DNA from: Eledone cirrhosa
Lineage: Eukaryota
Reading direction: 5' to 3'
Assembly (NCBI GenBank): GCA_964016885.1
Contig: OZ024759.1
Location: 21,638,058-21,702,000 of the forward strand
DNA length: 63,943 nt
Part shown: positions 19,906 to 20,230 of the stretch, in pieces
Numbering within the stretch: the first letter of the stretch is position 1
Layout of the letters: each line of letters starts with the position of its first letter
The notes under the pieces: model-generated
Seen by the model: only the letters and a program-made list of their open reading frames with translations
Database searches by the model: none
Told to the model about the DNA's origin: nothing
Made by a program: the position numbers and the translations under genes

Positions 19906-20230
19906 TTTTGAGTATATGTTGGTTGTTTAACGACACCTCAGTATGCAGATTCGAGCACTCGACGAAGAACGCATGTTGGTTGGGTTACTCCGGAGTAATC
20001 TAATGATTCCAGTTCCTGAGAGAAATAACAACCCAACCAGGAACTGGGCATATCGGAGTATTGACGGAGTTAAACAATTCAACAACATGTGTACCTGTCT
20101 CTACCACACCAATTCGGACTGCCTGAAGAGGTCACAGCCAAGGATGGCTGTCACCGAAATATATATAGCAGTACACCTTTAATAATCGAAGCCAAATTTT
20201 AAATATTTGACTTAATTATTTTATTTTATA
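19906..20230 (+). mobile_element. Structured ~320-nt hammerhead-bearing element in (TA)n (retrozyme-like)
   Basis: Multiple stems (19923-19931/20069-20077; 19980-20003; 20009-20018/20038-20047) upstream of an intact hammerhead; no convincing ORF. Confidence 0.65.
20118..20172 (+). ncRNA. Type I hammerhead ribozyme motif, apparently intact
   Basis: Stem I ACTGC/GCAGT; core CTGAAGA 20123-20129; stem II GGTCACAGCCA-AGGA-TGGCTGTCACC (10 of 11 pairs); GAAA 20156-20159; palindromic stem III ATATATAT; AUA triplet with predicted cut after 20167. Confidence 0.88.

What the first reader, a model, noticed from the sequence alone, without database searches (positions are those of the whole stretch)
19906..20230. 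Best-preserved hammerhead lies downstream of a multi-stem RNA with a possible conformational switch
Seen: an intact hammerhead (20118-20172) preceded by a closed domain. A 9-bp stem (19923-19931/20069-20077) encloses hairpin 19980-20003, whose G-U pairs work only on the plus strand, and a 10-bp hairpin (20009-20018/20038-20047). The loop of the latter carries AACCCAACCA (20030-20039), complementary to TGGTTGGGTT (19977-19986) and mutually exclusive with the 19980-20003 hairpin. Inference: a structured small RNA element with an alternative fold or pseudoknot, possibly a recognition signal for a helper RT.
Basis: partly seen in the sequence, partly recalled or inferred. Interest (0 to 1): 0.72.

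Follow-up and report, generated by a model that had tools for sequence, protein, structure and literature searches.

The report
Twin-primed scrap of a Penelope retrotransposon
This 326-base stretch is a short, partly flipped piece of a Penelope-like jumping gene with thousands of copies in this genome; its predicted self-cutting hammerhead RNA is a known kind, the proposed RNA switch comes from the flip plus mutations private to this copy, and related copies suggest that each insertion is likely copied from two fixed start points on one RNA.

Summary
The sequences quoted are there and the hammerhead (20118-20172, cut predicted after 20167) is intact. The 'closed domain with a switch' is not a family feature. 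The stretch is a truncated insertion of a Hydra-clade Penelope-like retroelement into (TA)n; the family has at least 6,544 hammerhead copies and young 890-aa RT + GIY-YIG ORFs. In whole elements 19906-20003 lies downstream of the hammerhead in the opposite orientation, so here it is an inverted tail. The 9-bp stem and 10-bp switch need bases found in 2-4 of 110-179 other copies; 0 of 17 like-built copies have such a helix. Only the hairpin 20008-20017/20039-20048 and the hammerhead are conserved. The copies record the mechanism: 38 of 38 head-to-head insertions join one arm ending at site 1 to one ending at site 2, about 96 bases on; 57 of 147 arms begin at one spot, with excess G before it (428 G, 154 A), as expected from a capped RNA start. 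Best reading: two cut target ends prime on one uncut RNA (inferred). The scan reported this mechanism before on other DNA of this genome.

The parts
19100..19905 (.). (TA)n microsatellite, left side of the insertion target
   Evidence: Tandem Repeats Finder 19100-19906; 56 of 65 tail ends in sampled loci are followed by (TA)n
19906..20003 (-). Inverted 3' tail of the Penelope-like element (about 97 nt between end sites 1 and 2); site 2 end at 19906
   Evidence: In whole elements this segment follows the hammerhead segment in reverse complement and runs on into the ORF leader (L038, L044, L064, L072, L074)
19985..19998 (.).
   Evidence: Sequence; native context; weak fold
20000..20003 (.). Inversion junction, one base of overlap; 2 nt inside the 5' end hotspot (native ATATGA)
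   Evidence: Alignment of 18 like-built copies with different junctions; junction survey
20003..20231 (+). Sense arm: pseudo-LTR piece from the 5' end hotspot to end site 1
   Evidence: 96.5% identical over 229 nt to the 3' end of element L038, 81.9% to the young L064 subfamily
20008..20048 (+).
   Evidence: 120 copies: U-G/U-A swap at 20008/20048 (91/21), U-A/U-G at 20013/20043 (94/19); 20017/20039 broken (C-A) in 34; 20018/20038 paired in 2 of 114
20118..20172 (+). Minimal type I hammerhead; predicted cut after 20167; predicted to need a dimer
   Evidence: core intact in 106 of 120 copies not chosen on the hammerhead; 1 of 49 stem and core positions variable (G-C to G-U) against 27 of 122 flanking positions, Fisher p=0.0005
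20226..20256 (.). End site 1 (TTTTA) running into a short degenerate TA tract, right side of the target
   Evidence: Sequence; 69 of 147 sampled arms end at this site

Best explanation
This is a short, non-coding insertion of a Hydra-clade Penelope-like retrotransposon into a TA microsatellite, made of an inverted tail joined to a hammerhead-bearing arm, and it likely formed when both cut ends of the target primed reverse transcription at two fixed sites on one uncut element RNA. Shown: family membership, native order of the two segments, two fixed 3' ends about 96 nt apart, one of each per head-to-head insertion, a 5' end hotspot, private origin of the switch. Inferred: the GIY-YIG domain cuts both strands of (TA)n; one end primes at site 1 and copies through the hammerhead to the RNA's 5' end (likely a capped start at the A of TCATAT, equivalent to window 20001); the other primes at site 2 and here stopped on reaching site 1, while in other copies it would have displaced the first cDNA and run on; the two cDNA ends were joined with 0-6 bases of overlap. 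The hammerhead is under selection in the active lineage but would be idle in this lone copy. The switch has no role.
For: Native order and ORF link. Intact ORFs of 893 and 894 aa, 99.3% identical in DNA, with RWK, DKT, YRDD, CNCRNPESC, IVYGC..YIG, CKLC, CRH and no CCHH, the features listed for Hydra in PMC8557442 section 11. In 120 loci fetched by hammerhead patterns (L083-L202, overlaps merged): 147 arms, 69 end at site 1, 69 at site 2, 9 elsewhere; unpaired arms 32 and 31; head-to-head pairs 37 of 38 site 1 + site 2, the 38th (L129) scored 'other' only because that reference was short and maps to site 1. After dropping L105 as a twin of L103, 18 of 37 pairs have 5' ends within 15 nt of each other (permutation mean 7.4, 0 of 20,000 reach 18), 8 of them away from the hotspot; the site 1 arm reaches further in 15, the site 2 arm in 4; 5 of 37 are tail-only like the window. 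57 of 147 arms begin at -129..-110 from the core. Genome-wide, the base before ATATGA is G 428, A 154, T 639, against 1,583 copies that continue natively. Copies joined to (TA)n at the hammerhead loop are rare: 39 against 6,544 intact, and 6 of 10 inspected are only loop expansions. In vitro, a Poseidon element cleaves and extends both strands, starts at two internal RNA sites and uses uncut RNA (PMC11167929).
Against: All mechanism is read from DNA scars. In 4 of 37 pairs the site 2 arm reaches more than 15 nt further upstream than the site 1 arm, which a trailing enzyme on one RNA does not explain without end trimming or a second RNA. Of 29 G-joined copies read by eye, 12 have a G that the partner arm could supply, 10 look untemplated and 7 are unclear, so the cap reading is suggestive only; the hotspot is also a palindrome (TCATATGA) directly upstream of a hairpin. 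The loop-joined and hotspot-joined patterns differ in stringency (12 TA bases against one base). PMC11167929 saw no difference in start site between the two strands in vitro. The sample was chosen on hammerhead sequence and from the first 110 Mb of one contig, so arms cut short of the hammerhead are under-counted. Pfam and PDB give no hit for the ORF; no tree was built.
Confidence: 0.8

Rival explanations
1. A structured small RNA with a conformational switch, spread as a unit by a helper RT.
For: The helices can be drawn in this copy; fold z -4.06; at least 17 other copies have the same order of segments; 4 of about 9 private changes in this copy improve pairing.
Against: Junctions differ among the 18 aligned copies. 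Longest tail-to-arm helix is 6-8 bp in 17 of 17 other copies against 10 here. Needed bases occur in 2-4 of 110-179 copies. Pair probabilities 0.00. Minus strand folds equally well.
Confidence: 0.03
2. Same element, but the inversion forms by fold-back: one cDNA primed at site 2 folds on itself or switches template and copies back to site 1, whose TTTTA pairs with the other TA end.
For: Would also give one site 1 and one site 2 end, and near-equal 5' ends (18 of 37 pairs); the hotspot is a palindrome.
Against: Cannot give the 15 of 37 pairs in which the site 1 arm holds sequence absent from the site 2 arm, the window among that kind; 32 unpaired arms end at site 1 on their own.
Confidence: 0.07
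3. Two-ended priming is right, but each end uses its own RNA (an RT dimer holding two RNAs), and the 5' hotspot is a pause after the hairpin plus ATAT microhomology, not a transcription start.
For: Both arms often copy the same region; site 2 arm longer in 4 of 37 pairs; a second small cluster of ends at about -39 also sits at a palindrome; 639 joins have T before ATATGA; a dimer is predicted for PAc.
Against: Two free RNAs give no reason for strict one-of-each use (38 of 38) or for matched stops away from the hotspot (8 pairs); the better TA match in the hammerhead loop is no hotspot; G exceeds A 428 to 154 in an AT-rich setting.
Confidence: 0.1

Closest known systems
Hydra clade of Penelope-like elements (Craig et al. 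2021, PMC8557442; passages, section 11 whole, supplement passages and part 2 of file 1 read)
   Same: RT followed by GIY-YIG; RWK, DKT, CxCX5C, CxxC, CxH, no CCHH; type I hammerhead near the end; (TA)n target; inverted 5'-truncated copy at the 5' end; tail at one end only. By eye the RT motifs match Hydra-1_Obim in the supplement (RRMRWKAF, DKTNNLY, GLYRDDAL).
   Different: Another family: its hammerhead differs from all those listed in part 2 of the supplement; unit about 4.1 kb (L072) against 'generally <3 kb'; ORF about 890 aa against mostly about 700 in database relatives; tail about 96 nt against 30-40; thousands of copies and young intact ORFs.
Minimal hammerheads of metazoan Penelope-like elements (Cervera and de la Pena 2014, PMC4209133; parts 1-2 of 4 read)
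   Same: Long helix II, 4-5 bp helix I, palindromic weak helix III; mostly single, from truncated elements; pairs on opposite strands 100-700 bp apart were noted; low activity, dimers needed.
   Different: Helix II has 10 positions with a fixed C-C mismatch; triplet AUA; one subfamily has G-U in place of G10.1-C11.1.
Poseidon element PAc of Anolis (Frangieh et al. 2024, PMC11167929; parts 1-2 of 4 read)
   Same: Two internal start sites bounding the tail; both strands cut and extended; AT-rich target; uncut RNA is the template.
   Different: Other clade; start sites lie inside the PAc ORF, here about 55-150 nt upstream of the ATG; the parts read report no one-of-each rule per insertion.
Twin priming of L1 (Ostertag and Kazazian 2001; only the reference line seen; text not held; mechanism recalled)
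   Same: Read on the minus strand, the window is a 3'-most piece in direct orientation with the next upstream piece inverted, the twin-priming layout.
   Different: In L1 the second primer anneals at variable internal sites (recalled); here both sites are fixed and the trailing copy often runs through the first site.
Metazoan non-LTR retrozymes (Li, Clavereau, Pollet 2026, 10.64898/2026.07.22.740005; part 1 of 5 read)
   Same: Short non-coding type I hammerhead sequence related to a pseudo-LTR.
   Different: No tandem array; no fixed monomer; each copy is made afresh from the parent element's RNA.

Membership tests
Penelope-like elements, Hydra clade | Single ORF, RT then C-terminal GIY-YIG endonuclease, linked to this hammerhead segment | tested here: met
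   893/894-aa ORFs flanked by the segment; YRDD at 353, IVYGC at 772, YIG at 787. By motif; Pfam gave no hit.
Penelope-like elements, Hydra clade | RWK motif and DKG changed to DKT | tested here: met
   RWK at 39, DKT at 122 (features)
Penelope-like elements, Hydra clade | Linker CxCX5C; CxxC and CxH late in the endonuclease; no CCHH, no CX2-5CxxC | tested here: met
   CNCRNPESC at 753, CKLC at 851, CRH at 879; the two other patterns give no match
Penelope-like elements, Hydra clade | Hammerhead in the terminal repeat; insertion into (TA)n | tested here: met
   56 of 65 tail ends followed by (TA)n
Penelope-like elements, Hydra clade | Placement inside the clade on an RT tree | not tested
   No tree built; motifs compared by eye with the supplement. 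The 4.1-kb unit exceeds the usual, not defining, length of under 3 kb.
Type I (minimal) hammerhead ribozyme | CUGANGA, GAAA, NUH with helices I and II in type I order | tested here: met
   core intact in 106 of 120 copies; 1 of 49 positions variable against 27 of 122
Type I (minimal) hammerhead ribozyme | Weak palindromic helix III that a dimer completes | tested here: inconclusive
   Loop is ATATATAT; two strands co-fold at -45.4 against -19.1 kcal/mol for one, pairing across helices I and III; prediction only
Type I (minimal) hammerhead ribozyme | Compensatory changes in the helices | tested here: inconclusive
   Only a one-sided G-C/G-U change (60/56); family too young for two-sided changes
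Type I (minimal) hammerhead ribozyme | Self-cleavage | not testable with these tools
   Needs an assay; no pile-up of copy ends at the cut site
Non-LTR retrozymes | Tandem array of hammerhead-bearing monomers | tested here: not met
   No tandem repeat at 19906-20231; one copy of the family in the window
Conserved RNA conformational switch | Both alternative helices kept across homologues | tested here: not met
   TGGTTGGGTT in 2 of 109 copies; natively the two arms are on the same strand sense and cannot pair

The most novel reading that the evidence does not exclude
Penelope-like elements integrate by obligatory two-site priming: one complex holds one uncut, capped RNA, each cut target end is assigned to a different fixed start site, the trailing enzyme displaces the leading cDNA and both stop together or at the cap. 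This one rule would produce the inverted repeats, the one-sided tail and thousands of solo pseudo-LTR scraps, and the genome's junctions would map both start sites and the transcription start to the base. A young intact Hydra ORF in the same genome makes it testable in vitro.
Probability: 0.45. Interest if true: 0.6.

Novelty: new member of a known kind. Interest (0 to 1): 0.36.

Why it matters
The switch itself does not matter: it is a by-product of an inversion. What the family adds is a count where the papers read give a description. They say that the tail is often at one end only and that the basis of tandem and inverted forms is open; here 38 of 38 head-to-head insertions use one of each start site, the two arms tend to stop together, and a G excess marks a likely capped start. 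If true, this fixes the architecture of the integration complex of a whole class of retroelements related to telomerase and gives sharp in vitro predictions. It also warns that inverted tails of such elements create false long-range helices beside real hammerheads.

Tried and rejected
Rfam scan of the window: no hit. Pfam on 8 window ORFs found only a distant LINE; Pfam and PDB on the element's ORF gave nothing useful; the protein search gave 880 mostly unnamed relatives of mostly about 700 aa. The fixed boundary at 20003 in the first genome search was partly forced by the query, so the ends were recounted on loci fetched by hammerhead patterns. Breaks at -196, -299 and -608 were subfamily differences from the reference, not ends. 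A propagated tail-plus-arm subfamily was rejected. Hammerhead-cut RNA as the main template was rejected. Sequencing runs: no RNA holder listed. The lead that a like bulged hairpin follows each start site (e1-10309281) was inconclusive: a bulged hairpin follows site 2 in L072 (-5.7 kcal/mol; -0.7 in L044), a weak palindrome follows site 1. Paper searches for twin priming in Penelope elements (3 papers, none on it by listing; 10 of 45 listed, none on it by title), for octopus Penelope hammerheads and for cap-derived G (listing only) found no direct account; the library lacks most subscription papers, and bioRxiv supplements were not seen.

Full report
Observation. Rfam has no hit. The region folds better than shuffles, but equally on both strands (z -4.06 and -4.07). 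In the folding ensemble of the window RNA the 10-bp hairpin and stem II form, while the 9-bp stem, the switch helix and the 19980-20003 hairpin have probability 0.00 (pseudoknots are outside the method).

What it is. The stretch is a repeat: 1,767 candidates in the 3.0-Gb own genome, and exact hammerhead patterns match 3,200, 6,029 and 6,544 times (overlapping sets, lower bounds). It has two segments, A (19906-20003) and B (20003-20231). In longer copies B follows the 3' end of an RT + GIY-YIG gene, and A follows B in reverse complement and then runs either into (TA)n or into the leader of the next ORF (L034, L038, L044). A protein search of the genome found intact ORFs of 893 and 894 aa, 99.3% identical in DNA, framed by B and reversed A. 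They carry RWK, DKT, CxCX5C, CxxC and CxH and lack CCHH, the features given for the Hydra clade of Penelope-like elements in PMC8557442 section 11. The unit is about 4.1 kb (L072). So the window holds the element's tail, inverted, joined to a piece of its pseudo-LTR. Earlier scan notes call this genome a cephalopod; I did not check that.

The switch. Seventeen other copies with the same order were aligned: their junctions differ, so the layout arose repeatedly. None has a tail-to-arm helix above 8 bp, against 10 in the window. Natively the two switch arms are similar AC-rich stretches in the same sense; inverting one makes them complementary. Two structures are kept by the family. In 120 copies not chosen on the hammerhead, 1 of 49 hammerhead stem and core positions varies (G-C to G-U) against 27 of 122 flanking positions (p=0.0005), and the hairpin 20008-20017/20039-20048 shows two U-A/U-G swaps that suit the plus strand, with one pair broken in 34 copies. 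No two-sided change was seen; the family is young.

How the copy likely formed. To avoid the bias of my first query I took loci by hammerhead patterns (120 loci from the first 110 Mb of contig C1, overlaps merged). Of 147 arms, 69 end at site 1 (window 20228-20231), 69 at site 2 (about 96 nt on; window 19906) and 9 elsewhere. Unpaired arms split 32 to 31. Head-to-head pairs are site 1 + site 2 in 37 of 38; the last, L129, maps to site 1 with the longer reference. Independent choice would give half. With L105 dropped as a twin of L103, the two 5' ends lie within 15 nt in 18 of 37 pairs (permutation mean 7.4; 0 of 20,000), 8 of them off the hotspot; the site 1 arm reaches further in 15 and the site 2 arm in 4; 5 are tail-only like the window. 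This fits two primers on one RNA, the trailing one stopping at site 1 or displacing the first cDNA until it meets the leading enzyme (inference). The 4 pairs with a longer site 2 arm do not fit simply.

The 5' hotspot. 57 of 147 arms begin at -129..-110 from the core, at native TCATATGA; the window's arm begins 2 nt inside it. Genome-wide the base before ATATGA is G 428, A 154, T 639, and 1,583 copies continue natively. T is explained by the TA target. An added G is the recalled mark of copying a cap, and TCA-TAT resembles an initiator (recalled); Penelope has an internal initiator-type promoter in its pseudo-LTR (PMC2377424, passages). Of 29 G-joined copies read by eye, none is a native copy with a point change, 10 look untemplated, 12 could take the G from the partner arm and 7 are unclear. 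By contrast only 39 copies match (TA)n at the hammerhead loop against 6,544 intact, and 6 of 10 inspected are loop expansions, so cut RNA is seldom the template, as in vitro for PAc (PMC11167929). The two patterns differ in stringency, and a pause after the hairpin remains a rival.

Comparison with what is known. Hydra elements, their hammerheads, (TA)n targeting, inverted truncated copies and one-sided tails are described (PMC8557442). Minimal hammerheads as singles and opposite-strand pairs from truncated elements are described, with low activity (PMC4209133). Two internal start sites and extension of both strands are shown for PAc. The one-of-each rule, the matched stops and the G excess were not found in my paper searches, which miss most subscription papers. 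I had noted twin priming and the cap idea before looking; the scan's own notes report the same mechanism on other DNA of this genome (e1-9564957, e1-8665316, e1-8802758), and none matches this sequence. These notes are not independent support.

Verdict. The hammerhead is real and of a known kind; the multi-stem switch is an artefact of inversion and private mutation; the stretch is a twin-primed scrap of a Hydra-clade family that I did not find among the published ones seen. Interest lies in the mechanism recorded by its paralogues and in the young intact ORFs that allow a test.

Noticed in passing
window 46647-46689, minus strand: A second type I hammerhead with intact core, of the compact Hydra style (6-bp stem I, U-U-closed short stem II, palindromic ACTAGT stem III), in a roughly 200-base piece between (TA)n tracts; the piece begins with a splice-donor-like AGGTAAGT.
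   Followed up: partly
window 37307-37350, plus strand: Probable decayed hammerhead: CTGATGA, 4-bp stem II, GAAA, then TGTTA with no clear stem III.
   Followed up: no
window 17029-17600, plus strand: Broken remnant of another Hydra-like endonuclease region (tblastn 34% over 85 aa, E 5e-6), ending in (TA)n at about 17825.
   Followed up: partly
window 20259-20421: A separate abundant repeat of about 163 bases directly right of the insertion (1,392 candidates, best copies 91-96% identical); kind not determined.
   Followed up: partly
window 52250-55114, plus strand: Unbroken 954-codon frame of a LINE with endonuclease and RT domains (Pfam PF14529, PF03372, PF00078), cut at its 5' end and set in TA-rich microsatellite; unrelated to the finding.
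   Followed up: partly
L078:7699-7855 (G000:C5): An inverted tail that stops at site 1 is joined to a copy that starts inside the tail and runs into the ORF, so the inverted tail occurs without the hammerhead arm.
   Followed up: partly
L063:3882-6560, L064:2413-5094: The ORF is about 190 aa longer than most database relatives, owing to low-complexity inserts after the RT, and is followed by a 1.1-kb 3' region with short direct repeats.
   Followed up: no
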